DNA of 54,673 nt from a virus (IMGVR_UViG_3300020160_003718:1-54673); one strand, 5' to 3'. Counted from the first letter of the stretch, positions 4,399-52,861 are shown. Program-made: numbers and translations. The notes: a model not told the origin generated them from the sequence alone.

Positions 4399-5493
4399 AT
4401 GGCAAGAAATCGTATCATTTATCAAAGTTTAGCTCTTTATGCTGGACAAACTGGCGTCAGCGCAATGCATACCGGCGACGGCACAATAAAACAACTTACG
4501 CGAGTTCAAAGCTGGGACTCTGATTTTTCAAGAAATTTCACCGATATTAACCAGTATGGTCAACTTGCCGCTATCGATCGTATTGAGGTTGAAGCTCCTA
4601 CTGTGAACATGAGTGCTTCATGGTATCCAACAGACGGATCAAATGAAAAATATATTGGTCTTAGCGTGTGTGCTTCTGGCGCTGCGCCAACAGCATTATT
4701 ATCTGGTATTCTTAAGAAAGAAACAGATGAAAAGAATTATTTCTTGACAGTTGCGAACGAGGGAAGCGATGCTGTTAATTACAGCAATGTGAAAACTGGT
4801 GTTTTTGGCGTTGGTAATTGCTTTTTAACATCTTATTCTTTAGAAGCTTCAGTTGGAGATGTCCCGACGGCGAGTGCCGACTTCGAGGCTCTCAACTTTG
4901 CAGTTTATTCGCAAGCTACTGCAATAAGCCCAGTTCCGTCAATTAATGCAGCTAGTGGAACTAAGATTACAGGATCTTATTTTAAACTTCCAGTGGCTAC
5001 GCAAAATGACAACAGTAGCCAGGTTACGGTTCTTAGACCAGGTGACATTACTTTTGCTTTGACAAATAATCAAGTTAAAGGTTTCGATTCTAGCGATATA
5101 AAAATCCAAAGCTTTACTTTATCAACTGATTTGGGCAGAACTCCAATTGAAAAACTTGGAAGCCGTTTTCCGTTCAGTAGAGAAATTGATTTTCCTATTA
5201 CGGCTTCGCTTTCTGTCGAGGCTCAAATGGGGGATTTGAGTGATTTCAATTTGGCTGATCTTCTTTGCGAAACTGGGTTTTATGATATAGCAATTACTCT
5301 TAAGAAGAATGATTGTTCCGGCGCTGGTGCTCCGGCAATTTTGGCACAAATTAAGGGAGCTAAATTGTTGTCTGAAAATGTTTCTACTTCAATTGGCGAC
5401 AATGCATCTGTCACACTTGAATATGAAGCAAGTATCAGTGGTCCAGAAGACTTAACAAAGGGCGTGTTTATTTCTGGTAGCTATCCAGCGTAA
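4399..5493 (+). CDS. Major tail (tube) protein
   Basis: Beta-rich 364 aa with two tube-like halves (RVQSWDSDFSRNFTDINQYG; IQSFTLSTDLGRTPIEKLG). A-rich leader, strong terminator, located upstream of the chaperone-position genes and TMP. Confidence 0.7.
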   Translation: MARNRIIYQSLALYAGQTGVSAMHTGDGTIKQLTRVQSWDSDFSRNFTDINQYGQLAAIDRIEVEAPTVNMSASWYPTDGSNEKYIGLSVCASGAAPTALLSGILKKETDEKNYFLTVANEGSDAVNYSNVKTGVFGVGNCFLTSYSLEASVGDVPTASADFEALNFAVYSQATAISPVPSINAASGTKITGSYFKLPVATQNDNSSQVTVLRPGDITFALTNNQVKGFDSSDIKIQSFTLSTDLGRTPIEKLGSRFPFSREIDFPITASLSVEAQMGDLSDFNLADLLCETGFYDIAITLKKNDCSGAGAPAILAQIKGAKLLSENVSTSIGDNASVTLEYEASISGPEDLTKGVFISGSYPA

Positions 5494-7902: not shown

Positions 7903-10900
7903 ATGGCTGACAATTTAACTACGGCAACTATTGATGTAAGAGCAAATACAAGGGGTATGGAGAGAGATATCCTGAAGGCTCTTCAAACTGTTGAACTTTC
8001 ACAAATCAATACAAAGAAGAGTTCTCAGGCTTTGGGTAGGATTACGGGTCAAGTTTCTGAATTCAATAAGAGTTTAGAAGCGTCTAATGCTCGCGTTGTT
8101 GCTTTCGGGGCATCTGCTGGAGCTATTTTTGCGGTAGAAAAGGCTCTTTCGTCCTTGATATCCTCGACAATAAATGTTCAAAAGCAACTGGCTGACGTGA
8201 ACGTGTTGCTGAATCTTTCTTCTTCTAGTTTGGAAAAATTTGGAAGTAGTCTTTTTGATATAGCTAGAAACACAGCTCAATCTTTTTCGGAGGTTGCTAC
8301 GGCGGCAACAGAACTTTCACGTCAAGGCTTAGGGGTTGAAGAAACATTAAAAAGAACTAATGCCGCTCTTATTTTAACCAGGTTGAGTGGTTTAGATGCA
8401 AAATCTAGCGTTGAGGCGTTAACAGCTACTCTGAATTCATTTTCTGGGTCGGCTTTAGACGCGGTTGAGGTTGTTAATAAGCTGGCAAATGTGGACGCGG
8501 CTTTTGCTGTTAGTTCCGCTGATTTGGCTAACGCTATTAGTAGAGTTGGTTCTACCGCTGTTGACGCTGGCGTTTCATTAGATGAATTAATTGCTTTAGT
8601 TACTTCTGCTCAACAAACAACTGCTCGTGGTGGCGCTGTTATCGGTAACTCATTTAAAACAATTTTTACACGTTTGCAACGTGGAAAGGTTCAGGATTTG
8701 CTTGGTAGTCTTGGGGTTGATACTACTGAGGGACAAAGCGCAATTAGTTTGCTTCAGCAGCTGGCTTCTACTTATGATACTCTGGGAGCGTCTCAAAAAT
8801 CTTATGTAGCGGAACAAGTTGGTGGTGTTTTCCAAATTAACATTTTAAAAGCTGCACTTTCTGACCTCGGTAAAGAGTACAGTATATATGGTAGAGCGCT
8901 TGATACTTCTTTGTCATCTACTGATGAGGCGATAAGAAGAAATGAACTTTTAAATAAAACTGTATCAGCTCTTTCCAGTCAAACTGTTGCAAGTTTAGAA
9001 GAAGCAGCAAATAAAATTGGAACAATCGTTTTTGAGCCAAATGCTAAAGGATTTTTATCTGGATTTAATAATTTGTTAGAATCTTTTAATAATATAGATT
9101 CAGAAAGTGCCGGTGGGAAATTAATGGAGGGATTTTTCAAAGGTGTTAGTAATTTTATAGGTGGACCTGGTGCGGTTTTGGCAACAGCAGTTTTGGTAAA
9201 ACTGTTTGCTAGACTTGGGCAATTCGCCGCTGGTTCAGCCAAGGAGTTGCTTGGGACAAATAAGGCTGCTCAGCAACAGGCAGCAATAGAGCAAAGTATA
9301 CTGAGTATCTTGCAGAAGAACAGTCAATTTACTAGTCAAATATTGGCTGGTAAAATGACAACCGTTCAAGCTGAAAAGCAGATGTTAGATTACTTGACCG
9401 CTCAATCAAATATTTTAAGAGAACAAGAGAGATTGAGTAAAGTTATAGGTGCCAATTTGGCAATGAAGGGCGTTTCCGTTGGAGCTTCTGGCATACCAAT
9501 GACTGCGCCCGCTAAAAAAACAAAAGCGGCTGCTTCTGGATATATTCCAAATTTTGCCACAGATATGGCAGTTGGTCAGGCAATGGAAAGTGCTGGAGCC
9601 AGAGAACATGGTTATAAGGCTGGAAAAGCGAGAAAAACAACCATCCACGATGGTAATGGAAAATCATTTAAATCTTTTGTTAATAATAAAGAAGATGTAA
9701 AGACCTTTACTAATGCTGCTGGTAAAAAGGCTACAGTAGTTCGTCCGCCAAATGGATTTGGTGAAAATACTCAATATGCGGCTGGTGGATTTGTTCCCAA
9801 TTTTGCTGAAAAAAGAATAGCATCTGTTTTCAAGTCTGGATCGTCTTTGAGGGGGCTTTATGATACTGGTCCAGTCTTTGATATGTATAATGATTCGGCT
9901 GTGCTGAAATATGAAAGCTTGCCTAAAAAATACGAAGAATATAGAAAAGAAGGTAGATTTATCTTTGAGGAAGCTAGAAAAATTTATAATAATTCGGGCA
10001 ATGATATAGGAAAAGCAAATTCATATATATCAAAAAGAATTCCTGGCGGTTTTTCAAAAAAATTAAGCAAAGAGTATTTTGATAAACCATTTTCTGAAAA
10101 CGCTATAAATCCAATAGTTGGAGCGTTAGGCGAAAAAGATTTTTTTTCTAATAATCCTGAATTTTCTAAATTGGAAGATTATGTTGGTCCAGATTTTAAA
10201 AAGGGAGATTTGTTTGCAGAGGTAAAAATTCTTAGAAAAAAAATTTCAGAAAAAAAACTTTTAGAAAAGGCGTTAAGGGGGGCGGCGTATTCTTCTCCTA
10301 AAAAAACATTTAAAAATGAAGATAGGGATGTTATCTCGCCAAATTTAATTTTTGCTTCCGCTATAAAAGAATCCATGTCTTCTGGATTTGTCCCAAATTT
10401 TGCTTCGATGGGTAGCAAATTCAAGGCTATGTATGGTGGTGGAACCACAATGCGCGCTGTTGATAAAGAAAAAACCGCAAAGAAGAAAAACCTTGATGTA
10501 AAAAAACTTGATTTATCAGATAGATATACAATGGTTCATGGCGGCAATCAGGGTCTTGAATCGGCTAATGTTTCGCTAGAGGCTGGCAATAAGTTATTTG
10601 ATGCTAAAATAGCAACGGCTGGACTGAACACCGCCGGAACCAATTTGCAAAGATATGGAATTAAGGGATTGGTGGGAGACGCTTTGGTTGGTGCTACTAA
10701 TAACATAATTAAAACTTTTGGCGGCACGGAGCAGATAACCGACGCTTCTTCGTTGGACAACGCTGGCTCTGTTGGCTCTGCCGCTGGAACAGTTTTCGAA
10801 ACTGCTTTAAGAAAAGCGTTCAATGCTCCTGCTGTAAGTCAAACTCAAAGAATAGATTTTCCAGCTCCAACTCCTGAACTTAAAAAGTTTTTCCACAATG

Positions 10901-13900
10901 CTCCAGGGCAATATGAGGCTAAAATATCAAGAACTCCAGATAATTTAAAAAGCGCATTGAAAAAGTGGGTGGATGTTAATGGTCTTGCGTCTTCGGCTTC
11001 TGGTTTTGTTCCTAATTTTGCAAAATCTGGATTGTCATTTTCTCATAAAGATAAGGATGAATTTGGTTTTAGTGAAATTCAAGCCATAATGAGCGGAAAA
11101 AAGGTTGGATCATTTAGTTATGCTGAAGATAAAAAAGGATTGGTAGATGTTGGCGACTTTTCTGTTAACAAGAGTGAAAGAGGCAAGGGTATAGGCACTG
11201 AACTTTATAAAGAAGCAATAAGAAGAAATAGGGGCAAAAAAATGAAGGGGCAATTGCTGCCTCAAATGAATAGGTTATTGCAAAAGATAAAAAATGGCGA
11301 ACCCGTCTCTGCTGAAACTTTATACCCGCAAATTAAAAGAGCGGATTTAGCGAAAAGTTCCATGTTTGAAGTATATGGTCATAAGGGCATGACTGTTGAA
11401 AAAATGACGAGAGATCAATTCTCTTCTTTTGTTAATGCTAAAATTTCAGAACTTAAAAAAGACCCAAAAAAATTACAAAGCTATTTCGGAAATGTGGAGG
11501 CTGACGAATATGGCGGTCTTGGGGTCGATTTACAAACCCAACATGCTTCTGGCTTTGTGCCAAATTTCTTAGATATAAAAAGGGATGGCAGTTTGCCATT
11601 TGGAGTTAGAGGAAGAGCTAATTTTTCAAAACCAGGCTCGAAATCAAGTATCCAATTGGGAGTTGGAGCAACTCCAGACACGTTATTTCATGAGGCTTCT
11701 CATTTGGCTTATTCAAAAGCCACAATGTCAAAAGCTAATTCCAATGAGGGAATTGGTAGGTTCATTTCAGATCCTAAAAAATACGCTGGTGTTTCGTCCA
11801 TAATGGCTTCTTCTATATTTAAGAATGTAAATCAAAATGAATTGTTCAAATCATTAGGCTTGAATCCTGTTCAGTTGGATTTTGATGGTAGAAACCCGGG
11901 AGCTACATATTCTGGTGCTAAAGCAGTTGATGAAATTACTACAAGAATACAGGAAAAAATATTTAAAAATAAGGGGGACTTAGCTTCTCTTTCCGCGAAT
12001 GAAAATGCTTTTATTAAAAATGTTGAAGGTCTTGGTATTATAAGTAATAAGCGCATGTCGAATGTGTCCAGAAGATCTGCTGAGGGTTCGAAATTTAGAT
12101 CTCTAATTGAGGGTCGTTTTTCTTCTGCCATGGGCGGTGCGGCTGGTGGCTTTGTTCCTAATTTAGCCGATCAGGTTAGGAAAAATATGTATGATTGGGA
12201 CGGTACTATTATCCCAACAATACGAGGCGGCGCGGATGAGTATATAAAGCAATTGGGCTCATTAAAAGAAAAAGATCTTCTTCCGATAGGCAAAAAATTA
12301 AAAGCTGGCAAGAAAAAGTTTGATATATTAACGAGTCGCCCGCCGCTTTTTGAAAAAGCTATAAGCGAAACATCTTCAAGGCTCGGACTTCCTGTTAATA
12401 AGATTAATTTTGGTGTTAAACCAAAGGATAAGATTGCTGAAGCTGGAAGACGTGGCTCTAAAATTGTTGACGATAATCTTGATTTAATAGGAAAACCTGG
12501 TTTTTTAAACGCTAGGGTAGTTAATAAAAGATTAAGCTCTGGTTTTGTTCCTAATTTTTCAAGTGCTCTTAATGACGCAATCGCAAGAGAACAATCATCC
12601 GGATTGTCCAAGAGCCAAATATATGTTGATAGCCATAGCTCTTTAAAGAATAAAAATAACCCAATGGGGTTAATGGTGGCAAATAGGCGCGATGAGCCAG
12701 GTGGCGGAATTCAGGGAATTAAAAGAGCTAAAAAAGAGGGCAGGAATCCGAAAACTTATGGCGCGGGGATGTCGTCTGGTTTTGTACCAAATTTCGCTTT
12801 CTTGGGTCGCAGTGAAGCTGAAACTTCCGAAATAAATTCTTTGCAAGGTGAACTAAAAAAAATAGATTCTGAAATAGCGAATAGAAAAGCTGAAATAAAA
12901 AGTCGGCAGAAGGAATTGGCGGCTCTTAGAAATGATTTGAAGAAGGGCGCGGGAAACGCGGAGGCAGTCAAGCAGACTACGGATTTAGAAAACGAAAATA
13001 AGGGATATGAGCAGGCTAAATTAAAAAATCCTCAACTAAGTGCCGGGATGGATTTTAAAATTGCTGAAAATAATAAAAAAATAGCAGATATAAGAAATCA
13101 GCAAGCTGAAGCTATAAAAAAAGAAATTGAATCTACATTAGATATTAATAGGCAAAATCGTGACTTATTAACTGAAAAAATTAAAGAATCCGAGGTTGTG
13201 AATCAAAATCTTTCTACCAAGAAAAAAGAAACAAGTAAACTTGGTAAGGTGAAAAATTTTGTTGGTGGTAATGCCATGACTTTGGGTTTTGGACTACAGT
13301 CCGTTGCCTCTATTGCTGGAGAATTTGCGGGGAATGATGACACTCAAGCTGGCAGAACAACAAAGGCAGTGTCTGGGGGAATTGGGGACATAGCTAGTTT
13401 TGCTGGAACTGGAGCAATGATTGCTGGTCCTTGGGGGGCTGCTGCTGGTGCATTAGTTGGATTAGGCAAAGCGGCAATAGATGTTACGAAGGCTTTTAAT
13501 ACAAAAGTTCCAGATTTAGAAAAAGCGCTTCGAACCTCTTCTGATTCAATGGGTAGATTTAGCGAATCTGGTCAAAAATTATTGACTTTGAATGAGCAAT
13601 ATGGAGACGCTTTGATGTCTGGAAATCCAGCTCAAGCAGCGGACATAATGGTTAAAACTCAGCAGGCTTATGCAGAAGAATTGAGTAAGCTCACTGAGGT
13701 TCAAAGAAGCTCAATGATCTCTGCAATAGCTCAGGGCAAGGGGCAGGAAGAATATGCTAAAATACTTGGCGAGATGCAAAATTCCGTCAAGGCTCAAGAA
13801 ACTGCCACTCAATTGACTAAATTTTCTGAAAGTGGCAGTATATTTTCAGCGCCAGATAAAAAACTTTTAGCGGGCATGGACAAAGGATTGGCTTTGGATT

Positions 13901-16900
13901 TTACAAAAGGTATGGATACTGCCTCCATAACGGCGGCTTTGGAAAAATCAGCGCCATCTCTTTCTGACGCAAATCGTGGCACTGAAAATCAAGCACTAGA
14001 CTTGATGAAAAATTTAGCCAGCTCAGATTCTCTTACTGGAGATCAAAAAGAAAATTTGAATAAAATGATAGAGGCTTTTTCAAATGCTGCAGAAAATACT
14101 GATTTGAGCGCCGTTGCTGAAGGTTTTATAAAAAGTATAAAAGACAAGCCGAAATCTGACGCGGATGTTAAAAAGGCTCAGCAAGCTGCTAAGGTTGAAC
14201 TTGAGGCTAGAGCAGCGAAGGTGAAAAAAGAAATAGAAATAAGAGAGAAGACAAATGCGATGTTGATAAAGCTTCAATCGGATACTGAAGCTGTATACCA
14301 AAGATACAATAACTCAATGGAGGATTTTATTTCGTCCATACAGACCGCTTCCGAGATGATGGGCGCTGCTGGTCAGTTTAGGGAGGAATATTTGGCTCAA
14401 TCTGGGGCTAATAAGAATATTACAGACCCTATTAAAGAAAAAAATATAGTAAATAAAAGTAATGCTGATTTAAAGGTTGGGGTATATAAATCTCAACTAG
14501 ATACTAGTAAAAATTTCAACGAGGGAGTTAAAAGTTTATTATCTGGATTAGAAGCTGATTCGGCAAAAGCTGCAGTTGGGCAATCTGCAAGCGATCAATC
14601 AAGTCAATTTTTAGAGATGAAATCAAAACTTGAGCAGGCTCTTCTGCCTGTTGAAGAAATGATCACTAGCGGAAATTATGAAGGTGCCAAATCTAAAACT
14701 CAAGAGGTATTTGATCAGTTAAAACCGGAGGAAAGGACTGCAATTGGCGAAGATAAGATTGTTGGGGCGGTTAAGCAGCTGAATTCTGGAATTGATAAAG
14801 GTTCAAGAAGTCAAGATTTACTTGCTAAAAACTCGCAAAAAGATTTAGCTATCCAAGCCCAGCAGCTTGTATTTCAAAAAGCGATGACTAAGCTTACTCA
14901 GGCTCAAAATTTTGGAGGAACTTCTAATCAAATATTGGGCAATACTGAAGATTCACCATTTAATAAGGCTATTGAGGCTGTTACCAATGCTAAAATAATG
15001 GGATATAATCAAGCTGGATTGAAGCAAGGTAAAGAAAGCGCAGTTGAGGGCGGAGATAGGGAATCTTGGGGGGTGGATGGTAAAAAACCAAGTAATGCAA
15101 CGGCTGAGCAGATAGTGAATTTTTATAAGGCTGCTGGGGAGATTGGTGGGCAGTCAGTAATGTCAACCGAATCAAAAGATTTTGCAGCATTGATTCAGGC
15201 GCTAAGAGAGGAAAAGAGAAAAAAACTTGACGAACTTAAAGGAGCTGGTGAGGGAGTTGTAGATCAATCGGTATTTACAAGATTGGAAACGATCTTAGCC
15301 ACACTTGGCGGAGGTGATCAAGTTGCCAAAATGAAGCTAACAAACGAGTTGGGAGTTGCTAATTTTACTGGTAAACAAATACAAGATGAAGCATTGAAGG
15401 GATATACTGGCAGCGCTTTCCAGGGTTTAAATCCAGATCTTAAAAAAGCATTTGTAAATACCAGCGATGAAGGCGCGTCGGCTACATTTTTATTGCTTGC
15501 TGACCAGAAAAACCAAACGGCATCAATTCTTACTGGTCAAACTGCTCAAACAGATTCGCTTAATCAGGGGTTACAAGCTATAGTGAGCGCAGGCTTGGAT
15601 CAAAATGGTATATTGGCAGAACAACCTTCCGCTATAGCTCAAGCAATTGGAGCAATATTAGAAAAAGGTAGAGCCGAGCAAAAACAGGATCAATCGGTTC
15701 AAAAAGTTGCAGACTTAGTTGGCCAGGGGGAGAAGGTTGGTGCAACTATAGCGCAGAATGAGCAGTTGATATCGGAAGCAAGAACTAAATATGACGAAAT
15801 TGTTAAAAGTACAGGTTTTTCAGAAGAAGATTTAAAAGATGGAGAAAAATTAAAACAGGCTCAATCGTTTTTTCAGGGAAGAGGCAGGACAGAGTATATA
15901 GCGGAAGAATCAAAAAAAACAGGTAGGGCGCTTTCTCAATCTGATTATCAAAATAAATACGGAAAAACGGGATCTCTTGAAGAAAGAAGAAAAGGATATG
16001 TTGCGCAGCAATGGGATGAGCAAGCTAAACCTAATCAAGATTTTATAAATGCGGTAGAGGCTTTTAAGATGGCTCAAGAGCAATCAAAAATTATTAAAGA
16101 AAAAACAGGCGAAAATCAGGGTCTTACTAGTACAAAGCAGGAACTCAAAGCAAAGGAGATGACTGAAAGAAGTGCTCTGACTAAAATTATAAATGAAGAA
16201 GTAAACCCAAAAAGAAAACTTGCGGAAGTAGCTCAAAATACAATTTTAAATGAGCGTAGAACTGGGGGTCAAACTTACCTTGATAAGAACGAAGCTGCAA
16301 GGCAAGAAGCTGCCAAAAAGAAAGCTCTTGCGGAAAATCTTGGAATGCAGGATGGGGGAGATCTTACAACTGAACAACAAAAGAAAAATAAAGCCAGAAG
16401 TCAAGGACGTGGATTGGCAACCCCATCAGAACTTACTTTTAATAAGTTCAGTGGCAAAATGGATACATTCGAAAATGCTGCTATGCTTGAATTTGGTGGA
16501 GCTAATAACAAGTCTTTTGATAAGTTAATAAGTCAACAGGCTTTGCCAAGTTTTGAAAATTTTGCATCAGTATATGAAAAATTGGGAGGTGAAGGTAAGG
16601 GGCGAGAGTTTTACCAACAAACGAGGGCGGAATTGTTTGGAGCTGAAAAAACTGTGACTAAGCCAGCTGCTCCAGCTGCTCCAACTGCAACTACTCCTGA
16701 AAGCGTAAGTCAGGGAACTGCTGCCGCTATGGATCTTGAAAAGCGCAAGAAGAGCGAAATTGACAGTTTGATGCAGAAATATACAAAATATGGACAAGAT
16801 GGTAAAATGACATTTAATCCAAGAAATGGATTTGAATCTCAAGTAGAGCAAGAAGCATTCAATACAGAACTTGCAAATTTAAAGAAACAGCAAAGAGGAT

Positions 16901-17340
16901 ATACTTTAGAAAATGTTGGTGCCACTGGTCCAAATGTACAAGGAGCAACAACAAAAACTCAAGAACCTGCGGCAGCTCAAAAAACCAAACAAGAAGAGCA
17001 AAAGAAGCCTGAAACTGAAAAAGCGCAAGATCCTTCTCAATTAATTTCTAATATTTTAACAACTGTTAATCAAATAGCGGCGCAACTGCAAAAACAAGTT
17101 GCTCCAGCCGCAGCTGCTAATGGACAAGCTGGTGCTGTGGGACCAGTTAGCGTGAGTACGCCAGTAAACCTTTCAATAAACTCTACAGCTGGTGAAAATA
17201 AAACTGAAGTAGCAAGTGTTGCTGATCAAATAAAAAATGGCATATCTCAATTCTTTTCATCTCCAGAATTTCTGGAAAGAGTTACTACAATTGCAAAAAC
17301 TGCAGCTGGTAATCCTCCCCCTCCAAAGTCAATAGTGTAA
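7903..17340 (+). CDS. Tail tape measure protein with an internal array of enzyme-like modules
   Basis: N-terminal TP901-type TMP core (LFDIARNTAQSFSEVATAATELSRQG; RGGAVIGNSFKTIFTRL), long Ala/Gln/Lys helical regions, a Gly-zipper hydrophobic segment (GAMIAGPWGAAAGALVG) and canonical position. Confidence 0.92.
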   Translation: MADNLTTATIDVRANTRGMERDILKALQTVELSQINTKKSSQALGRITGQVSEFNKSLEASNARVVAFGASAGAIFAVEKALSSLISSTINVQKQLADVNVLLNLSSSSLEKFGSSLFDIARNTAQSFSEVATAATELSRQGLGVEETLKRTNAALILTRLSGLDAKSSVEALTATLNSFSGSALDAVEVVNKLANVDAAFAVSSADLANAISRVGSTAVDAGVSLDELIALVTSAQQTTARGGAVIGNSFKTIFTRLQRGKVQDLLGSLGVDTTEGQSAISLLQQLASTYDTLGASQKSYVAEQVGGVFQINILKAALSDLGKEYSIYGRALDTSLSSTDEAIRRNELLNKTVSALSSQTVASLEEAANKIGTIVFEPNAKGFLSGFNNLLESFNNIDSESAGGKLMEGFFKGVSNFIGGPGAVLATAVLVKLFARLGQFAAGSAKELLGTNKAAQQQAAIEQSILSILQKNSQFTSQILAGKMTTVQAEKQMLDYLTAQSNILREQERLSKVIGANLAMKGVSVGASGIPMTAPAKKTKAAASGYIPNFATDMAVGQAMESAGAREHGYKAGKARKTTIHDGNGKSFKSFVNNKEDVKTFTNAAGKKATVVRPPNGFGENTQYAAGGFVPNFAEKRIASVFKSGSSLRGLYDTGPVFDMYNDSAVLKYESLPKKYEEYRKEGRFIFEEARKIYNNSGNDIGKANSYISKRIPGGFSKKLSKEYFDKPFSENAINPIVGALGEKDFFSNNPEFSKLEDYVGPDFKKGDLFAEVKILRKKISEKKLLEKALRGAAYSSPKKTFKNEDRDVISPNLIFASAIKESMSSGFVPNFASMGSKFKAMYGGGTTMRAVDKEKTAKKKNLDVKKLDLSDRYTMVHGGNQGLESANVSLEAGNKLFDAKIATAGLNTAGTNLQRYGIKGLVGDALVGATNNIIKTFGGTEQITDASSLDNAGSVGSAAGTVFETALRKAFNAPAVSQTQRIDFPAPTPELKKFFHNAPGQYEAKISRTPDNLKSALKKWVDVNGLASSASGFVPNFAKSGLSFSHKDKDEFGFSEIQAIMSGKKVGSFSYAEDKKGLVDVGDFSVNKSERGKGIGTELYKEAIRRNRGKKMKGQLLPQMNRLLQKIKNGEPVSAETLYPQIKRADLAKSSMFEVYGHKGMTVEKMTRDQFSSFVNAKISELKKDPKKLQSYFGNVEADEYGGLGVDLQTQHASGFVPNFLDIKRDGSLPFGVRGRANFSKPGSKSSIQLGVGATPDTLFHEASHLAYSKATMSKANSNEGIGRFISDPKKYAGVSSIMASSIFKNVNQNELFKSLGLNPVQLDFDGRNPGATYSGAKAVDEITTRIQEKIFKNKGDLASLSANENAFIKNVEGLGIISNKRMSNVSRRSAEGSKFRSLIEGRFSSAMGGAAGGFVPNLADQVRKNMYDWDGTIIPTIRGGADEYIKQLGSLKEKDLLPIGKKLKAGKKKFDILTSRPPLFEKAISETSSRLGLPVNKINFGVKPKDKIAEAGRRGSKIVDDNLDLIGKPGFLNARVVNKRLSSGFVPNFSSALNDAIAREQSSGLSKSQIYVDSHSSLKNKNNPMGLMVANRRDEPGGGIQGIKRAKKEGRNPKTYGAGMSSGFVPNFAFLGRSEAETSEINSLQGELKKIDSEIANRKAEIKSRQKELAALRNDLKKGAGNAEAVKQTTDLENENKGYEQAKLKNPQLSAGMDFKIAENNKKIADIRNQQAEAIKKEIESTLDINRQNRDLLTEKIKESEVVNQNLSTKKKETSKLGKVKNFVGGNAMTLGFGLQSVASIAGEFAGNDDTQAGRTTKAVSGGIGDIASFAGTGAMIAGPWGAAAGALVGLGKAAIDVTKAFNTKVPDLEKALRTSSDSMGRFSESGQKLLTLNEQYGDALMSGNPAQAADIMVKTQQAYAEELSKLTEVQRSSMISAIAQGKGQEEYAKILGEMQNSVKAQETATQLTKFSESGSIFSAPDKKLLAGMDKGLALDFTKGMDTASITAALEKSAPSLSDANRGTENQALDLMKNLASSDSLTGDQKENLNKMIEAFSNAAENTDLSAVAEGFIKSIKDKPKSDADVKKAQQAAKVELEARAAKVKKEIEIREKTNAMLIKLQSDTEAVYQRYNNSMEDFISSIQTASEMMGAAGQFREEYLAQSGANKNITDPIKEKNIVNKSNADLKVGVYKSQLDTSKNFNEGVKSLLSGLEADSAKAAVGQSASDQSSQFLEMKSKLEQALLPVEEMITSGNYEGAKSKTQEVFDQLKPEERTAIGEDKIVGAVKQLNSGIDKGSRSQDLLAKNSQKDLAIQAQQLVFQKAMTKLTQAQNFGGTSNQILGNTEDSPFNKAIEAVTNAKIMGYNQAGLKQGKESAVEGGDRESWGVDGKKPSNATAEQIVNFYKAAGEIGGQSVMSTESKDFAALIQALREEKRKKLDELKGAGEGVVDQSVFTRLETILATLGGGDQVAKMKLTNELGVANFTGKQIQDEALKGYTGSAFQGLNPDLKKAFVNTSDEGASATFLLLADQKNQTASILTGQTAQTDSLNQGLQAIVSAGLDQNGILAEQPSAIAQAIGAILEKGRAEQKQDQSVQKVADLVGQGEKVGATIAQNEQLISEARTKYDEIVKSTGFSEEDLKDGEKLKQAQSFFQGRGRTEYIAEESKKTGRALSQSDYQNKYGKTGSLEERRKGYVAQQWDEQAKPNQDFINAVEAFKMAQEQSKIIKEKTGENQGLTSTKQELKAKEMTERSALTKIINEEVNPKRKLAEVAQNTILNERRTGGQTYLDKNEAARQEAAKKKALAENLGMQDGGDLTTEQQKKNKARSQGRGLATPSELTFNKFSGKMDTFENAAMLEFGGANNKSFDKLISQQALPSFENFASVYEKLGGEGKGREFYQQTRAELFGAEKTVTKPAAPAAPTATTPESVSQGTAAAMDLEKRKKSEIDSLMQKYTKYGQDGKMTFNPRNGFESQVEQEAFNTELANLKKQQRGYTLENVGATGPNVQGATTKTQEPAAAQKTKQEEQKKPETEKAQDPSQLISNILTTVNQIAAQLQKQVAPAAAANGQAGAVGPVSVSTPVNLSINSTAGENKTEVASVADQIKNGISQFFSSPEFLERVTTIAKTAAGNPPPPKSIV
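9538..12795 (+). repeat. Eight dispersed in-frame copies of peptide G[FY][VI]PN[FL] inside the TMP
   Basis: Copies at 9538, 9787, 10384, 11002, 11551, 12148, 12541 and 12778 (aa 546, 629, 828, 1034, 1217, 1416, 1547, 1626), each preceded by AS, SS or AG. Confidence 0.95.
17335..17340 (+). promoter_or_regulatory. GTGTAA motif overlapping the TMP stop codon
   Basis: GTGTAATAGTTTA, identical over 13 nt to the copy at 5575; ATG follows at 17347. Confidence 0.5.
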
Positions 17341-26721: not shown

Positions 26722-27960
26722 TTATAAATTTCTTTGTATTTTGTCGCACCAGCCTTTGGATTCCGAGTGAGGCCAAACAACCCAATATAAGGGTTTTTCT
26801 TCAGTATTGAATTCTCTCCAAATTTTACAATACTTATCTGGATCATTCATTAGTCTACCTATTTCTTCTTTATGGGCGTCTTTTCTATAAAGCTCTTTTC
26901 CATCTGATCCGTGAAATGCAACTACCCAAAAATCATAATCTTTTTCTGGCACATCTTTGTATGCAACATCTATACAATGCTTAAAGATCCTTAAGAAGGA
27001 ATTTTGAAACTTTTCTTCTGAGTCGTATTGGGGGTTGGGCGGATTTTTGCGATCTATGGTTTCTTTTTGAACAGCTCTTTTTTTGAAAGATATTCCTGCA
27101 TATTTTTCATAATCCAGAAGGCTTCTTTCTTTACCGAATCCATAAATTCCAAAATCTATGTCCTGAATTTCCCCATCCATTCCGAATAATTTTCGGTTGC
27201 GCCTGTGGCAATTTTCGTTTTTTTGCCCCCAGGTTCTATCGTCATCCCAGTGTTTTGTTCTACCTTTTCTGGTATATTCGTGCCATGCAATTATTTTGTG
27301 AGGATGAAACAAGTCATATCCCCAAGTGAAGGCTCTTACAGCAATTGAAATTTCTTCTCCGTGAAAGTAATATTCTGGATCGTGAGGCACTTCTTTGCAA
27401 AAGACTCCATCAGTAAAACAAAAATGGGCAGAGTAAAAGCGGGCGGGAATTGGTTTTTGTAAATTTTTAAAATCTGGAATTGACGCTGGTAAAAAGAAAA
27501 TAGCCCCCTCTGGTATGAATCTATCAAAATCCATTTTCCACGGTACGCCTCCTCTGCCAGCCGGATCGTTATCTGGATCAAAACTAGAAATATAACTTGT
27601 GAGCAATGGCTTTTTGTATCCTTCCTCTCTAAGCCCTTCCAGCATGTTTATCAATTCTTCATCCCAATTTTTGATAAATCTATGGTGGCTATCTAGTTGA
27701 AGGGTGTATTTTTCTCCATTGTATTCTTGTTGAATCTTGTGTCTTGCCCAACATGCGCCCTTGGATTCTTGGTACGGAATATCAATTATCCTGAATCTAG
27801 GGTCATCTTTATATTTTTCAAGATTTTCTTCTTCCCCATGCTGCCAAGCGATTCCGAACCTTAAATTTTCTGGATATTTTGCGTTTTTAATGCAGTCGTC
27901 CAGAGTGGGAATCAGTTGAGGATCTCTGTATGAAGCAATTTGAATATAAATTGTTGACAT
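26722..27960 (-). CDS. GlcNAc-transferase-like glycosyltransferase (GT60 / Skp1-hydroxyproline GlcNAc-transferase-like)
   Basis: TIYIQIASYRD, SKGACWAR, LQLDSHHRF..NWD, FHGEEI..AVRAFTWGYD and FG.ERSL.DYE.YAGI motifs. Confidence 0.85.
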   Translation of the reverse strand: MSTIYIQIASYRDPQLIPTLDDCIKNAKYPENLRFGIAWQHGEEENLEKYKDDPRFRIIDIPYQESKGACWARHKIQQEYNGEKYTLQLDSHHRFIKNWDEELINMLEGLREEGYKKPLLTSYISSFDPDNDPAGRGGVPWKMDFDRFIPEGAIFFLPASIPDFKNLQKPIPARFYSAHFCFTDGVFCKEVPHDPEYYFHGEEISIAVRAFTWGYDLFHPHKIIAWHEYTRKGRTKHWDDDRTWGQKNENCHRRNRKLFGMDGEIQDIDFGIYGFGKERSLLDYEKYAGISFKKRAVQKETIDRKNPPNPQYDSEEKFQNSFLRIFKHCIDVAYKDVPEKDYDFWVVAFHGSDGKELYRKDAHKEEIGRLMNDPDKYCKIWREFNTEEKPLYWVVWPHSESKGWCDKIQRNL

Positions 27961-31465: not shown

Positions 31466-32560
31466 ATGCAAGAAATCAGTCTAGAAATTCCGGTAAATAA
31501 TTTATCTTTCGGTAATTGCTCCGTTAATATTCTAAAGGAGCTTTTCAAAAAAGAAATAAATCCAACTATCTTCCTCATCGGGGATAGGGCAGATCTTTCT
31601 TCTTTTGAGGGAAACCTGCAGCCGGAATTTTTAGATTGGTTTAAAAACTGCTTTTCCCAATCTTACAAAAAGCACAAAAGGGACAATCCCACACTTAAGT
31701 TGTGGCACTTAAACGGTTCTTTAAATTCATATTCTAAAGATCAGTATCTTTTTACATTTTATGAGTTGGACAACCCGACCGAAACAGAGCTAAATATTGC
31801 TAATAATCAAAAAAAAGTAATACTTTCATCTAAGTACGCGAAGAGTGTTTTTGAGCAATTTGGATGTAAAAATGTAGAGCATTGCCCGCTTGGTTTTGAT
31901 TCCTCAAGTTTTTTTAAAAAAGAAAGAACCGGAGAGCACGATAAAATTATTTTTGGATTAGCTGGCAAATTAGAAAGAAGAAAACAGCATCATAGGGTTC
32001 TTTCAGCTTGGGCAAAGAAATATGGCAACAATCCAAAGTATCTTCTCAATTGTGCTATTAAAAACGCATTCTTAACACCGGAACAACAAGCCTCCGCCAT
32101 AAATGGCGTGCTGGAGGGCAAAAGTTATTTTAATATTAATTTCTTGGACTTCATGCCAACAAACGCCCTATATAATGATTACTTAAATAGTAATGATATA
32201 ATTATAGGTATGTCCGCTGGAGAAGGCTGGGGGCTTCCAGAGTTTCAGAGTTTGTGCCTTGGAAAGCATGGCGTGATATTAAACGCCCACTCTTACAAGG
32301 ATTGGGCTAATGAAGAGAATTCTGTTTTAGTAAACCCATCCGCGAAAATTCCATGTTATGACGGAGTATTCTTCAAGGAAGGCGCAGATTTCAATCAGGG
32401 TAGTTATTTTGACTGGAATGACGATGAATTTATTTCCGCTTGCGAAGAGGCTGAAAAAAGATTTGAAAAAAATAAAAACAACGAAGCTGGGGTAAACTTG
32501 TCTAAAATTTTCACATGGGAAAAAACTACAGATAAATTATTAGAGATTTTATCTAATTAA
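31466..32560 (+). CDS. GT-B (GT4-like) glycosyltransferase
   Basis: GKLERRK, EGWGLPEFQ and FTWEKT motifs. Confidence 0.85.
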   Translation: MQEISLEIPVNNLSFGNCSVNILKELFKKEINPTIFLIGDRADLSSFEGNLQPEFLDWFKNCFSQSYKKHKRDNPTLKLWHLNGSLNSYSKDQYLFTFYELDNPTETELNIANNQKKVILSSKYAKSVFEQFGCKNVEHCPLGFDSSSFFKKERTGEHDKIIFGLAGKLERRKQHHRVLSAWAKKYGNNPKYLLNCAIKNAFLTPEQQASAINGVLEGKSYFNINFLDFMPTNALYNDYLNSNDIIIGMSAGEGWGLPEFQSLCLGKHGVILNAHSYKDWANEENSVLVNPSAKIPCYDGVFFKEGADFNQGSYFDWNDDEFISACEEAEKRFEKNKNNEAGVNLSKIFTWEKTTDKLLEILSN

Positions 32561-36988: not shown

Positions 36989-37735
36989 ATGAATTCGGTT
37001 ATTTTAACATCTTACTTTTCAGTTAAAAAACATCCAAATGATCCAAATGACAAATGCGTTATTGGTCGTGGTTCTGACGGTAGAGTTTTACAAAATGATT
37101 TTCAATATATAAAGCCGTGGTATAATTCCGTAAATAAATTAAACTTAGAGGGAAGAATTTTTTACGATAATTTATCAGACGACTTCTTAAATGAATACAC
37201 TACGGATAAAATAAAATTTATAAAAGTTACCCCATCAGATTACTCCAATAATGATTGGAGATTTTTTTGTTACAGGAACTTTTTAGAGGAAAATAAATTT
37301 AATTCTGTATTTTTAACCGATGGGTCTGATGTAACTGTAGTTAAAGATCCAGGCAGAATCATAAAGGATAATCCGCTGATAGACTTGTTTGTCTGCAAGG
37401 ACAGCATCATGCTTAATGAATTTCCATATTTACAAATTCACAAACAGGCAAGATGGGATAATTATACTTGGTTCCACAATCATCAACAAATGCTTAATTT
37501 AATTAATATGGGAGTTATTGGCGGCGGTTATGATAATATCATGTTATTTTTAAATAATTTCTGCGAAACAAGAATTAAACTTGGTCATCCAGATTTTAAT
37601 TCCGATATGTGGACTGGTCAATATGTTTTCAGAAATCTTCTGTCATATAAAAATATGTTAATTGGAGAACCGTTCACTAGTAATTTTAAAAAATACGAAA
37701 TCGACAGGGGAGACGTTTATTTTATTCATAAATAA
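36989..37735 (+). CDS. Putative GT-A glycosyltransferase
   Basis: RFFCY..FL, VFLTDGSDV, INMGVIGG and NSDM motifs; lies in the glycan cluster. Confidence 0.6.
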   Translation: MNSVILTSYFSVKKHPNDPNDKCVIGRGSDGRVLQNDFQYIKPWYNSVNKLNLEGRIFYDNLSDDFLNEYTTDKIKFIKVTPSDYSNNDWRFFCYRNFLEENKFNSVFLTDGSDVTVVKDPGRIIKDNPLIDLFVCKDSIMLNEFPYLQIHKQARWDNYTWFHNHQQMLNLINMGVIGGGYDNIMLFLNNFCETRIKLGHPDFNSDMWTGQYVFRNLLSYKNMLIGEPFTSNFKKYEIDRGDVYFIHK

Positions 37736-37736
37736 T

Positions 37737-43372: not shown

Positions 43373-44455
43373 ATGAAATCAAAAGAACTATTGTCAAGCT
43401 ATCTTAAAAGCAATAAAGACGAACATTATAATTATGTCCAAGATAAAGATTATCTTATCTCTACAGGGAGTTTGATTTTTGATATTGAAGTTGGCGGCGG
43501 ATTGCATCCTTCTATTTTGAGATTTAGTGGCGTCTCAGGTGGTGGCAAAACAAGTTGCAGTCTTTCTATTATGAAAAGCTTTCTCTCTACGGCAAAGGGT
43601 AGAAAAGCTCTATATATAAAAGCTGAGGGTAGGCTTTCTAAAAATGTAGTTGATAGGTCTGGTATTAAATTTGTAGAGGATCCAGAGCAGTGGGAAGACG
43701 GAAGTTGTTTTATATTCAAAACAAATATTTACGAAACCGCCGCCAATCTAATCCATAAGCTCGTTCAAAACAACGAAGAGGAAACCGCTTACTTTTTTGT
43801 CATTGATAGTATGGACGCTCTTATTCCTAAAGGAGACAAAGATAAAACTTTTGAAGACGCGGTAAAAGTCAGCGGCGGCGCAGCGATTTCGTCCCACTTC
43901 TTGAAAAAGATGGCGTTGCCATTTTCAGTTGGCGGACATATATGCGCTATGATTAGCCAAGTTAGAAGTGAGGTCAAAATAAATCAATATGCCAAAACCG
44001 ACCCGCGACTGACAAATGCTTCTGGAGGATCAGCACTACTTCACTATTCTGATTGGATTTTTGAATTCGCTCCAAGATACAAATCTGATTATATTACTGC
44101 AACTATAAACGGAAAAGAGGAGAACATCGGTCATTGGGCTAAAATTACATTTAAAAAATCTACAAACGAGAAGGATGGAAAAGAAATTAGATACCCAATC
44201 AAGCATAGTCAAAACGGCGGCAACTCGGTTTGGGTCGAGTATGAGATTGCTGACCTCATGATCATGTGGGAATTTGCCAAAAAAGCAGGCGCATGGATTA
44301 AAATTGAGCCCTCTTTGGTTGAAGAATTAAAATCAAATAATATTATGTTCCCCGAAACTATTCAGGGAATTGACAATCTTAGACTTGCTCTTTCAAATAA
44401 TGAAGAGGCTACAAAATACCTTTTTAATAAATTTAAAGAAATCTGCATAAGCTAA
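43373..44455 (+). CDS. recA: RecA/UvsX-like recombinase
   Basis: ISTGSL.FD...GGGL, Walker A GVSGGGKT, VIDS, ISQVR and SGGSAL.HYS. Confidence 0.85.
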   Translation: MKSKELLSSYLKSNKDEHYNYVQDKDYLISTGSLIFDIEVGGGLHPSILRFSGVSGGGKTSCSLSIMKSFLSTAKGRKALYIKAEGRLSKNVVDRSGIKFVEDPEQWEDGSCFIFKTNIYETAANLIHKLVQNNEEETAYFFVIDSMDALIPKGDKDKTFEDAVKVSGGAAISSHFLKKMALPFSVGGHICAMISQVRSEVKINQYAKTDPRLTNASGGSALLHYSDWIFEFAPRYKSDYITATINGKEENIGHWAKITFKKSTNEKDGKEIRYPIKHSQNGGNSVWVEYEIADLMIMWEFAKKAGAWIKIEPSLVEELKSNNIMFPETIQGIDNLRLALSNNEEATKYLFNKFKEICIS

Positions 44456-48607: not shown

Positions 48608-48641
48608 AAAGGTATTAAAAAAAATATATTGTTACCATACG

Positions 48642-49400: not shown

Positions 49401-49402
49401 AA

Positions 49403-50053: not shown

Positions 50054-50056
50054 ATT

Positions 50057-51844: not shown

Positions 51845-51845
51845 C

Positions 51846-52784: not shown

Positions 52785-52861
52785 GCATTAAAAAAAGTAT
52801 AGATTTTGAAGTAAAAAATAGATTTCATAATTTTTTTGCTGAGGGTATGGTCACATCCAAT
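52685..52861 (+). mobile_element. Split intein C-half
   Basis: VKIVGIRSSRSLGIKKSIDFEVKNRFHNFFAEGMVTSN|S, with blocks F/G, terminal Asn and +1 Ser. Confidence 0.9.

What the first reader, a model, noticed from the sequence alone, without database searches (positions are those of the whole stretch)
9538..12795. GFVPNF delimiter is conserved as peptide, not as DNA
Seen: the copies use different synonymous codons (G: gga/ggt/ggc; V: gtt/gtc/gtg/gta; P: cca/ccc/cct) while the peptide is almost invariant. I found the motif nowhere else in the window's + strand proteins. Copies such as YAAGGFVPNF and HASGFVPNF resemble the [YFH]A[ST]GG motif common in TMPs. Inference: selection acts on a protease site, an Asn-dependent autocleavage site or a chaperone-binding site. 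The residual ~20-nt similarity could secondarily give microhomology for module gain and loss via the phage RecA-like protein.
Basis: partly seen in the sequence, partly recalled or inferred. Interest (0 to 1): 0.7.

Follow-up and report, generated by a model that had tools for sequence, protein, structure and literature searches.

The report
Peptide fence between tape-measure cargo modules
A giant phage tail "ruler" protein carries seven swappable protein modules, each fenced by the same ten-residue peptide, which is kept by selection on the protein and resembles the place where phage T5 cuts its own ruler protein.

Summary
ORF 7903-17340 (+) is a 3145-aa TP901-type tape measure protein (TMP). 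It carries 8 copies of G[FY][VI]PN[FL] at exactly 9538-12795, where 0.00 are expected by chance.

The family logo is A-[AS]-[SG]-G-[FY]-[VI]-P-N-[FY]-A. All 120 listed homologues and all 135 further cluster representatives carry 2 or more copies. In five related phage genomes of 134-178 kb, four of them complete, all 20 copies lie in the TMP.

Codon use at the motif equals the background synonymous use. DNA identity between the copies is what the peptide alone predicts. Selection therefore acts on the peptide.

The motif fences exchangeable modules: 126 sequence clusters, including GNAT, an HExxH module and, in a relative, ART-PolyVal. Two homologous ~75-aa "cap" modules stand at the ends of the array. 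Homology blocks between relatives break at the motif.

AlphaFold places every modelled motif in low-confidence linkers.

The best functional clue is phage T5. The N-terminal half of the motif has its single best match in T5 pb2 directly before the cut site mapped after R1127.

My best reading, at about 0.5, is a processing site that frees tail-carried cargo. The cutting agent is unknown, and the HExxH module cannot be the general one. Cutting and delivery are untested.

This scan has met the same family before on other DNA.

The parts
7903..17340 (+). Giant tape measure protein gene (3145 aa, P0001)
   Evidence: ORF. N-terminal part matches PF10145 at 5.9e-25, TIGR01760 at 4.1e-28 and PHROG TMP families down to 6.5e-44.
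7903..9537 (+). N-terminal TP901-type TMP domain (aa 1-545), before the first motif
   Evidence: At most 26% identical to TMPs of Bacillus phages.
9538..9555 (+). Motif copy 1, GYIPNF (context AASGYIPNFAT)
9556..9786 (+). Module 1: first 'cap', 77 aa, homologous to module 7
   Evidence: Clusters with the last cap when the flanks are included; alignment A2. No Pfam, PHROG or NCBIfam match.
9787..9804 (+). Motif copy 2, GFVPNF (YAAGGFVPNFAE)
9805..10383 (+). Module 2, 193 aa, family unknown (cluster 12; in 9 of 120 homologues)
   Evidence: No family match.
10384..10401 (+). Motif copy 3, GFVPNF (MSSGFVPNFAS)
10402..11001 (+). Module 3: the widespread 'core' module, 200 aa (cluster 1; in 66 of 120 homologues). 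Invariant E, D and K residues in an E...D...[DE]xK-like pattern; fold not established.
   Evidence: alignment A3. PDB profile search found only weak lectin hits at E 0.02 or worse. ESM Atlas best score 0.79 to unnamed viral clusters.
11002..11019 (+). Motif copy 4, GFVPNF (SASGFVPNFAK)
11020..11550 (+). Module 4: GNAT acetyltransferase-like, 177 aa (cluster 3; in 41 of 120 homologues)
   Evidence: PF00583 at E 4.9e-5, 24.0 bits against a cut-off of 20.7. The same family is found in relatives.
11551..11568 (+). Motif copy 5, GFVPNF (HASGFVPNFLD)
11569..12147 (+). Module 5: HExxH module, 193 aa (cluster 6; in 21 of 120 homologues)
   Evidence: HExxH is invariant in 21 of 21 members. No Pfam or NCBIfam match. 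The nearest named ESM Atlas clusters carry LPD23, LPD1 or ART-PolyVal, score 0.91; this is a lead only.
12148..12165 (+). Motif copy 6, GFVPNL (AAGGFVPNLAD)
12166..12540 (+). Module 6, 125 aa, with a DWDGT string that looks like HAD motif I (my reading of the sequence; no family match)
   Evidence: Sequence; cluster 11, in 12 of 120 homologues. No family match.
12541..12558 (+). Motif copy 7, GFVPNF (LSSGFVPNFSS)
12559..12777 (+). Module 7: last 'cap', 73 aa, the most widespread module (cluster 0; in 105 of 120 homologues)
   Evidence: AF2 gives a helix-strand-strand-helix core at pLDDT 70-78. No fold match: VIA best Z 3.2, BFVD best E 0.85.
12778..12795 (+). Motif copy 8, GFVPNF (MSSGFVPNFAF)
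12796..17337 (+). C-terminal part of the TMP, 1514 aa, without motif copies
   Evidence: No family match.
43373..44455 (+). UvsX/RecA-like recombinase gene.
   Evidence: phrog_97 at E 1.4e-29. No link to module exchange was tested.

Best explanation
The decapeptide A-[AS]-[SG]-G-[FY]-[VI]-P-N-[FY]-A is a linear signal that does not depend on the module beside it. It sits in flexible linkers of a tape measure protein that doubles as a carrier of exchangeable cargo domains.

Most likely it is a processing site. After the tail has been measured, or after the protein is ejected, the chain is cut at or next to each copy. By alignment with T5, the cut would fall after the Asn. The caps and enzyme-like modules (GNAT, HExxH and others) would then be freed from the N- and C-terminal ruler parts and from each other.

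Shown here:
- The motif and its peptide-level conservation.
- Its restriction to the TMP.
- The mosaic of modules, with breakpoints at the motif.
- The likeness to the T5 cut site.

Inferred: the cutting itself, the position of the scissile bond, the catalyst (unknown: host protease, another phage protein, the cap, or self-cleavage) and delivery into the host.
For: 1. The signal does not depend on the module. The same motif bounds 702 modules that fall into 126 sequence clusters in 120 proteins. There is one more motif than there are modules, as in a polyprotein.

2. Conservation is strong and acts on the peptide. G is kept in 1086 of 1090 copies, P in 1086 of 1087 and N in 1086 of 1110. Synonymous codon use equals the background.

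3. The motif is specific to the TMP. All 20 pattern matches in five related genomes of 134-178 kb (four 100% complete) lie in the TMP array, and reversed-pattern controls give 0. The strict motif is absent from 648,567 aa of other frames in 84 loci.

4. The motif lies in linkers. All four motifs of a cap-core-cap array and both motifs around the window's last cap fall in stretches with pLDDT below 50, beside domains at 70-80.

5. There is a precedent with a sequence likeness.
- T5 pb2 is cut after R1127, which separates an enzymatic domain from the rest (PMC10038345, passages).
- The T5 sequence there reads NANSFVPR|AEGG.
- A scoring matrix built from this family's motif ranks that window 2nd of 1210 as a 10-mer. 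Its N-terminal half (positions -3 to +3) ranks 1st of 1210, and 49 of 1000 shuffles reach that score anywhere.
- Of six alignable Demerecviridae relatives, four keep F-[VIT]-P-R|A at the aligned place, including GFIPR|A in a Klebsiella phage. Two Vibrio phages have [FV]YGR|A instead.

6. The cargo fits injected enzymes. The array holds a GNAT module, and ART-PolyVal plus DUF7178 occupy array modules of relative P0119. These are families of 'polyvalent proteins', for which processing into units has been proposed (PMC5512222, passages).

7. A TMP-fused enzyme that acts in the host has been shown for Thermus phage P23-45 (PMC10770324, abstract as shown in the listing).
Against: No cleavage product has been seen, and no isolate of this clade exists in the phage collection searched.

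The likeness to T5 covers only about 4 residues:
- The full 10-mer score at the T5 site is negative, at -11.7.
- P1 is Arg in T5 and Asn here.
- The cap profile finds nothing in pb2 (hhalign probability 0.06%).
- I chose the half-motif after seeing the match.

No protease common to the family was found:
- HExxH occurs in the array of only 26 of 120 proteins.
- PF04586 is found in 0 of 5 related genomes and ClpP-like PF00574 in 2 of 5.

Low pLDDT is weak evidence. The models are poor overall, with mean pLDDT of 55.8 and 63.5.

The substitutions at Asn (S in 19 copies, A in 3, D in 1, G in 1) are residues that a type-I turn tolerates (recalled knowledge). That fits a recognition or structural turn at least as well as a scissile residue.

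Some relatives carry motif-cap-motif units far down the helical part (P0125, P0126 and others). A structural 'node' would explain this equally well.
Confidence: 0.5

Rival explanations
1. The motif is an uncut docking or assembly motif. It forms a tight turn with two aromatic side chains that binds a common partner: the tail-tube lumen, a tail assembly chaperone, the cap domain, or the same motif of the other TMP chains. This would keep the chains in register between bulky modules.
For: The motif occurs only in the TMP.

It is a hydrophobic island, GF[VI]PNFA, in polar flanks.

Asn is replaced mainly by Ser (19 of 24 variant copies), which a turn would tolerate.

Motif-cap-motif units recur along the helical part of some relatives.

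No common protease was found.
Against: No partner has been identified.

AF2 does not pack the motifs against the caps or against each other.

This reading does not explain the likeness to the T5 cut site.

Eight motifs per chain against two caps argues against simple cap-motif pairing.
Confidence: 0.3
2. This is a specific version of the cleavage reading. The motif cuts itself through cyclisation of its Asn, in the manner of an asparagine peptide lyase, alone or helped by the cap. No protease is needed.
For: Asn is kept in 1086 of 1110 copies.

Aligned with T5, the Asn takes the place of P1 Arg.

No common protease was found.

The cap is the only near-universal module, in 105 of 120 proteins, and keeps invariant acidic residues.

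Asn-Phe self-cleavage of tetravirus coat proteins is recalled from memory and was not checked here.
Against: The 24 copies with S, A, D or G in place of Asn have otherwise intact motifs and are spread over the arrays.

Known Asn lyases need a folded catalytic setting (recalled), whereas the motif lies in predicted linkers.

The cap has no recognised fold.
Confidence: 0.12
3. The motif exists mainly as a recombination joint. It would be a DNA-level homology patch for cassette exchange, and the peptide would be a harmless linker.
For: Homology blocks end at the motif. Of 40,207 HSP ends, 53% lie within 10 aa of a motif, against 13% for random points.

DNA blocks between the window and its nearest relatives start and stop within about 10-25 nt of motif centres. 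One relative (L006) lacks modules 5 and 6 by a clean motif-to-motif join.

Across 76 genes, DNA identity between copies is slightly above expectation (15.39 against 15.01 of 18 nt; 56 of 76 genes above).
Against: Codon use at the motif equals the background.

In the window, copy-to-copy DNA identity is as expected from the peptide (14.86 against 14.71 +/- 0.41).

Exact shared runs average 8.7 nt.

Invariant G, P and N with free third codon positions is the signature of protein-level selection.

Selection for in-frame, motif-bounded junctions would also put breakpoints there.
Confidence: 0.05

Closest known systems
Phage T5 tape measure protein pb2 and its maturation cut after R1127 (PMC10038345, passages read)
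   Same: Both are TMPs. The cut separates an enzyme domain from the ruler part. The residues just before the cut, [GS]-F-[VI]-P, match the first half of this motif and are kept in four of six alignable Demerecviridae relatives. The catalyst is unknown in both.
   Different: T5 has one site, not 3-13. P1 is Arg, not Asn, and is followed by AEGG, not [FY]A. There is no cap domain. The freed domain is a cell-wall enzyme, not an array of exchangeable modules.
Polyvalent proteins of phages and conjugative elements (Iyer et al. 2017, PMC5512222; passages read)
   Same: Both have many unrelated enzyme-type domains in one polypeptide encoded among virion genes. They share domain families: GNAT here, ART-PolyVal and DUF7178 in a relative, and an ESM Atlas lead to LPD domains. 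Release by processing is proposed for both.
   Different: The paper never uses the words 'tape measure' or 'linker' (0 occurrences each). Its carriers are MuF, portal or N4 vRNAP-type proteins, and its proposed processing agent is a zincin-like MPTase domain. Here the carrier is the TMP, a conserved delimiter peptide fences every module, and most arrays have no HExxH.
Thermus phage P23-45 gp96, a 5,002-residue TMP whose N-terminal part is a virion RNA polymerase (PMC10770324; abstract in the listing, methods passages)
   Same: Both are giant TMPs that carry an enzyme. In P23-45 the enzyme is shown to work in the host early in infection.
   Different: P23-45 has one fixed enzyme at the N-terminus. 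The passages found mention no delimiter motif, no cassette exchange and no processing ('proteoly' 0 occurrences).
Phage lambda gpH maturation to gpH* and gpHC (PMC12617516, passages read)
   Same: The TMP is cut after tail assembly in a glycine-rich region, and the paper states that the catalyst and the exact site are unknown.
   Different: The cap-plus-motif profile does not match gpH (hhalign probability 0.14%). The best motif-like string, SFGGMIPMFR at aa 103-112, lies far from the cut near residue 690.
Delimiter motifs of polymorphic toxins (VENN in CdiA, DPxGL in Rhs) and recognition sequences around cyanobactin core cassettes. All are recalled from memory; none was checked here.
   Same: A short conserved peptide marks the border between a constant carrier and variable cassettes, and exchange happens at that border.
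   Different: Those systems usually carry one C-terminal toxin with an immunity gene, or small peptides. Here several folded modules sit in tandem inside a phage tail protein.

Membership tests
TP901-type phage tail tape measure protein | N-terminal core domain (PF10145 / TIGR01760) | tested here: met
   PF10145 at E 5.9e-25, 88.8 bits against a cut-off of 33.2. TIGR01760 at E 4.1e-28, 98.4 bits against a cut-off of 28.8.
TP901-type phage tail tape measure protein | Gene lies between the tube/chaperone genes and the distal tail genes | tested here: inconclusive
   The upstream ORF 4399-5493 gives only a weak Phage_tube_2 hit (E 0.005, below the cut-off). The neighbouring ORFs have no family match. 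The order is consistent but not shown.
Polyvalent proteins (Iyer et al. 2017) | Two or more unrelated effector-type domains in one polypeptide encoded among virion genes | tested here: met
   Seven modules of six different sequence clusters in the window. GNAT by Pfam. The carrier is a virion protein.
Polyvalent proteins (Iyer et al. 2017) | Hallmark domain families (ART-PolyVal, MPTase-PolyVal, LPDs) | tested here: inconclusive
   The window's modules match none of them in Pfam at E <= 0.1. Relative P0119 has ART-PolyVal (6.7e-25) and DUF7178 (8.6e-20) inside its array. The ESM Atlas lead for the HExxH module points to LPD23/LPD1 clusters, score 0.91.
Polyvalent proteins (Iyer et al. 2017) | Processing by an in-chain zincin-like metallopeptidase | not testable with these tools
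   HExxH is invariant in its module (21 of 21), but only 26 of 120 arrays contain any HExxH.
T5 pb2-type TMP maturation site | [GS]-F-[VI]-P directly N-terminal of the scissile bond | tested here: met
   The half-motif matrix ranks the T5 site 1st of 1210. T5 reads NSFVPR|A, the Klebsiella phage reads NGFIPR|A, and the family motif here is SGF[VI]PN[FY]A.
T5 pb2-type TMP maturation site | Arg at P1 and AxGG after the cut; homologous surrounding domain | tested here: not met
   Here Asn and [FY]A take those places. The cap profile against pb2 gives hhalign probability 0.06%.
T5 pb2-type TMP maturation site | Cleavage shown in virions | not testable with these tools
   No isolate or proteome of this clade was available. 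The array has no tblastn match in 50,697 phage records.
Asparagine peptide lyases (self-cleaving at Asn; definition recalled) | Asn indispensable at the scissile bond | tested here: inconclusive
   Asn in 1086 of 1110 copies; S in 19, A in 3, D in 1, G in 1. The variant copies are spread over array positions.
Asparagine peptide lyases (self-cleaving at Asn; definition recalled) | Autocatalytic cleavage without a protease | not testable with these tools
   This needs a purified fusion protein.
Lambda gpH-type joint next to the gpH*/gpHC cut (lead from earlier notes of this scan) | The same module or motif is present in lambda gpH near the cut | tested here: not met
   hhalign of the cap-plus-motif profile against gpH gives probability 0.14%. 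The only motif-like string lies at aa 103-112, whereas the cut lies near residue 690 (PMC12617516).

The most novel reading that the evidence does not exclude
The decapeptide is a portable cutting signal that works the same way beside any neighbouring domain, and it is cut after its Asn without a dedicated protease (by itself or with help from the cap). The tail tube would then be a magazine of separately released enzymes.

Each released piece would begin with Phe, Tyr or Leu. These are the residues that the bacterial ClpS N-degron pathway recognises (recalled knowledge). The injected enzymes would therefore carry a built-in timer for their own destruction.
Probability: 0.12. Interest if true: 0.9.

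Novelty: new variant of a known kind. Interest (0 to 1): 0.7.

Why it matters
If the motif is a processing signal, this large uncultured phage clade has turned its tail ruler into a plug-in carrier. The clade is large: 1115 cluster representatives at 50% identity match the cap-plus-motif profile at E <= 0.001. Any domain placed between two copies of one peptide would be loaded into the tail, carried into the host and freed.

That would give a defined, testable handle on three things:
- How TMPs of T5 and lambda are cut, which the literature read here calls unknown.
- A catalogue of more than 100 unannotated candidate host-takeover or anti-defence modules.
- Possibly a short, context-independent cleavage or docking tag for protein engineering.

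If the motif is not cut, it is still a new, strongly conserved assembly signal of long phage tails.

Tried and rejected
- Complex prediction (three copies of the cap with its motifs, to test a trimer-node idea) was not available. That idea is untested.
- Fold searches gave nothing usable. For the basal-array model the VIA wide search gave a best Z of 4.9, on helical hairpins only. For the cap model the best VIA Z was 3.2 and the best BFVD Foldseek E was 0.85.
- Profile searches against PDB sequences: the cap gave 0 hits at E <= 10. The core module gave only lectin hits at E 0.02 or worse.
- ESM Atlas for the core module: best score 0.79, to unnamed viral clusters.
- A search for stand-alone modules (lengths 'shorter') found 4 hits, all on contigs under 1.5 kb, so they are fragments and not split genes.
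- The array has no match in the isolate phage collection by blastn or tblastn.
- Motif strings in papers: one unrelated proteomics paper.
- 'Tape measure' together with 'polyvalent protein': 6 papers, none with either term in its title or abstract. I read passages of one of them (PMC7824862), which mentions the two terms separately.
- The three motif-like hits outside TMPs in the loci were GLAPN[FL], allowed only by my loosest pattern. I rejected them as chance.
- Bacillus phage FADO TMP (3081 aa) has neither the motif nor [YFH]A[ST]GG.
- The genome-contig scan for host clues was badly designed. In the 80 loci fetched, none has two motifs in one open frame, so all look like chance. The host remains unknown.
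- The search for related loci with the cap alignment on genome contigs could not run.
- A search for T5-like F[VI]P strings elsewhere in the family proteins gave nothing clear.
- My reading of the core module as a PD-(D/E)xK nuclease rests only on invariant E, D and K residues. The AF2 secondary structure does not show the expected sheet, so I do not claim it.

Full report
**Observation**

The window is a 54.7-kb fragment of an IMG/VR virus record. ORF 7903-17340 on the + strand encodes 3145 aa.

A regular-expression scan finds eight copies of G[FY][VI]PN[FL] at aa 546, 629, 828, 1034, 1217, 1416, 1547 and 1626.

The back-translated pattern hits these eight places and nothing else on either strand. 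The mean over 100 dinucleotide-preserving shuffles is 0.00. Amino-acid composition predicts 0.005 copies per protein.

No other frame of 60 aa or more in the window holds the motif.

**What the protein is**

Residues 1-545 match PF10145 (E 5.9e-25), TIGR01760 tape_meas_TP901 (E 4.1e-28) and many PHROG tape-measure families. The protein is therefore a tape measure protein (TMP).

The eight motifs fence seven modules of 77, 193, 200, 177, 193, 125 and 73 aa (these lengths exclude the 6-aa motif).

- Module 4 is a GNAT by Pfam (E 4.9e-5, above the cut-off).
- Module 5 has an HExxH that is invariant in all 21 members of its cluster.
- Module 6 has a DWDGT string that looks like HAD motif I. This is my reading only; no family matches.
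- The other modules match nothing.
- The 1514-aa C-terminal part has no motif copy.

**The family**

A word-indexed search with aa 530-1650 gave 389 proteins at E <= 0.001 among 8000 scored candidates. All of the 120 listed proteins carry 3-13 copies.

A profile of the cap with both flanking motifs, run over 1.84 billion cluster representatives, gave 1115 hits at E <= 0.001 and 611 at E <= 1e-10. The 150 listed are 785-5198 aa long.

The logo from 724 unique 30-mers is A-[AS]-[SG]-G-[FY]-[VI]-P-N-[FY]-A, with uninformative polar flanks. Across 199 distinct proteins, G is kept in 1086 of 1090 copies, P in 1086 of 1087 and N in 1086 of 1110. The replacements at N are S in 19 copies, A in 3, D in 1 and G in 1.

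The motif belongs to the TMP alone.

- In 84 loci, 648,567 aa of other frames contain only three hits to my loosest pattern. All three are GLAPN[FL], which I take as chance.
- In five related phage genomes of 134-178 kb (four estimated 100% complete), all 20 pattern matches lie in the TMP array. The reversed-pattern control gives 0.

No isolate phage in the collection searched has a similar array. The N-terminal domain is at most 26% identical to Bacillus phage TMPs.

**Peptide, not DNA**

I compared codons in 297 unique motif copies from 79 distinct TMP genes with the synonymous usage of the same genes. The codon frequencies agree:

| Residue | Entropy at the motif (bits) | Background entropy (bits) |
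|---|---|---|
| Gly | 1.64 | 1.74 |
| Val | 1.49 | 1.51 |
| Pro | 1.33 | 1.43 |
| Asn | 0.48 | 0.57 |

The window's seven strict copies share on average 14.86 of 18 nt. Drawing codons at random from the gene's own usage for the same peptides gives 14.71 +/- 0.41, and 35% of simulations reach the observed value.

Over 76 genes there is a small excess, 15.39 against 15.01 nt, and 56 of 76 genes lie above expectation. Five genes reach the 5% level, where about 4 are expected.

There may be a faint DNA-level component.

**Modules and breakpoints**

The 702 inter-motif modules of the 120 proteins fall into 126 clusters, arranged as a mosaic. Median module length is 171 aa, and 79% are 220 aa or shorter.

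The last module is a ~71-aa 'cap' found in 105 of 120 proteins. The first module is homologous to it.

The commonest architecture among 79 IMG/VR genes is cap-core-cap, seen in 44. The window has four further modules inserted into that arrangement.

Homology breaks at the motif:

- Of 40,207 BLASTP HSP ends, 53% lie within 10 aa of a motif, against 13% for random points. These ends are not independent events.
- At the DNA level, blocks shared with the nearest relatives start and stop within about 10-25 nt of motif centres.
- One relative (L006) lacks modules 5 and 6 through a join that overlaps one motif.

However, exact shared runs between the window's copies average only 8.7 nt, with a maximum of 21. 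Selection for in-frame, motif-bounded junctions would give the same picture.

The window does encode a UvsX-like recombinase. Nothing links it to these events.

**Structure**

AlphaFold2 on a cap-core-cap array from a relative (43 sequences) gave a poor model, with mean pLDDT 55.8. All four motifs lie in stretches below 50 and the caps at 70-80.

The window's last cap with both motifs (72 sequences) gave mean pLDDT 63.5. It has a helix-strand-strand-helix core at 70-78, and both motifs lie below 50.

No fold search gave a credible match. The motifs are thus predicted to lie outside the folded units. This fits their independence from module type, but low confidence is weak evidence.

**Cargo**

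I scanned 29 further family members with Pfam.

- Inside the arrays, the only families found are GNAT and, in P0119, ART-PolyVal plus DUF7178.
- The cell-wall enzymes VanY (P0061) and NlpC/P60 (P0052) lie in the C-terminal part, outside the arrays.

ART-PolyVal and the ESM Atlas lead for the HExxH module (LPD23/LPD1 clusters, score 0.91) tie the arrays to the 'polyvalent proteins' of Iyer et al. 2017. In the passages I read, those authors propose processing by zincin-like peptidases. They never mention tape measure proteins (PMC5512222).

**Mechanism**

Two published cases show TMP cutting.

- T5 pb2 is cut after R1127, between a hydrophobic stretch and its muralytic domain (PMC10038345, passages).
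- Lambda gpH is cut into gpH* and gpHC. [quoted passage not shown]

pb2 reads ...GIGNANSFVPR|AEGG....

A scoring matrix built from 1015 motif instances ranks this window 2nd of 1210 as a 10-mer, although the score is negative. The N-terminal half ranks 1st of 1210, and 49 of 1000 shuffles reach that score anywhere in the protein.

Of six alignable Demerecviridae relatives, four keep F-[VIT]-P-R|A at the aligned place: Salmonella SFVPR, Klebsiella GFIPR, Proteus NFIPR and Vibrio Quinn SFTPR. Two Vibrio phages have [FV]YGR|A, and the Aeromonas sequence did not align.

The likeness is short. I chose the half-motif after seeing the match, P1 differs (Arg against Asn), and the cap profile finds nothing in pb2 or gpH. 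Even so, the best match in a 1219-aa protein sits exactly at the one mapped cut. This is the strongest functional clue obtained.

I therefore favour a processing site, at 0.5.

The HExxH module cannot be the general catalyst, since only 26 of 120 arrays contain HExxH. A head-maturation protease is unlikely to be the general catalyst either. No other gene in the four complete genomes has the motif, and no common protease family was detected.

**Rivals**

- An uncut docking or register-keeping turn (0.3) explains the TMP-only distribution, the Ser-for-Asn replacements and the extra motif-cap-motif units far down some relatives.
- Asn-driven self-cleavage (0.12) is a sub-case of cleavage.
- A DNA-first recombination joint (0.05) is contradicted by the codon data.

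**Known, new, and earlier notes**

The closest known things are the T5 and lambda TMP cuts, polyvalent proteins, and the P23-45 TMP-fused RNA polymerase (PMC10770324, abstract as listed).

No paper in the library holds the motif strings. None of the 6 papers that contain both 'tape measure' and 'polyvalent protein' carries either term in its title or abstract. I read passages of only one of them.

This scan has noted the same GF[IV]PNFA family on other DNA several times. My results agree with those notes, and I tested three of their leads. T5 is supported as a resemblance, lambda is not met for this family, and for P23-45 I read only the abstract.

The supplements of the papers were not opened. 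Figure S5G of the T5 paper, which maps the cut, was not seen.

Noticed in passing
L088 (phage lambda) gpH aa 103-112: The best match of this family's motif matrix in lambda gpH is SFGGMIPMFR (score 5.9). It lies just before the stretch 116-140 that PMC12617516 calls the favoured transmembrane prediction, and far from the gpH cut. It may be chance.
   Followed up: partly
P0125, P0126, P0127, P0141, P0147, P0153, P0161 (relatives): Some family members carry extra motif-cap-motif units 800-1400 aa apart in the C-terminal helical part, for example at about aa 3537-3627 of 4113. Long ruler segments are therefore also fenced by the motif.
   Followed up: partly
window 48564-53965 (+): The DnaE-like DNA polymerase appears in several ORFs. 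48564-49400, 50057-51844 and 52685-53965 hit different parts of phrog_405, with an unannotated ORF 51846-52784 between them. This may be a split or interrupted polymerase gene.
   Followed up: no
window 26722-27960 (-), 31466-32560, 36989-38657, 39325-39873, 41657-42736 (+): The window holds a cluster of four glycosyltransferase-like genes, a methyltransferase and a nucleotide-sugar epimerase next to nucleotide-metabolism genes. This could point to virion or DNA glycosylation.
   Followed up: no
family motif, position after Asn: The residue after the invariant Asn is F (91%), Y (9%) or L (1%). If the cut falls after Asn, every released piece would start with a residue that the bacterial ClpS N-degron pathway recognises (recalled knowledge).
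   Followed up: no
relatives P0052, P0053, P0088, P0090, P0110, P0120, P0126, P0127, around aa 536-560: At the boundary between the N-terminal TMP domain and the first cap, some clades have degenerate copies such as GGYVPA, SGFVPM or GFVPF, with the Asn lost.
   Followed up: no
P0061 aa 3280-3362; P0052 aa 3636-3709 (relatives): The cell-wall hydrolase domains VanY and NlpC/P60 sit in the C-terminal part and are not fenced by the motif. Cytoplasm-type enzymes (GNAT, ART) sit inside the fenced array.
   Followed up: partly
G001 and G004 (related complete genomes): A ClpP-like protease gene (PF00574, E 2e-26 and 1e-28) is present in 2 of 5 related genomes. PF04586 is present in none.
   Followed up: no
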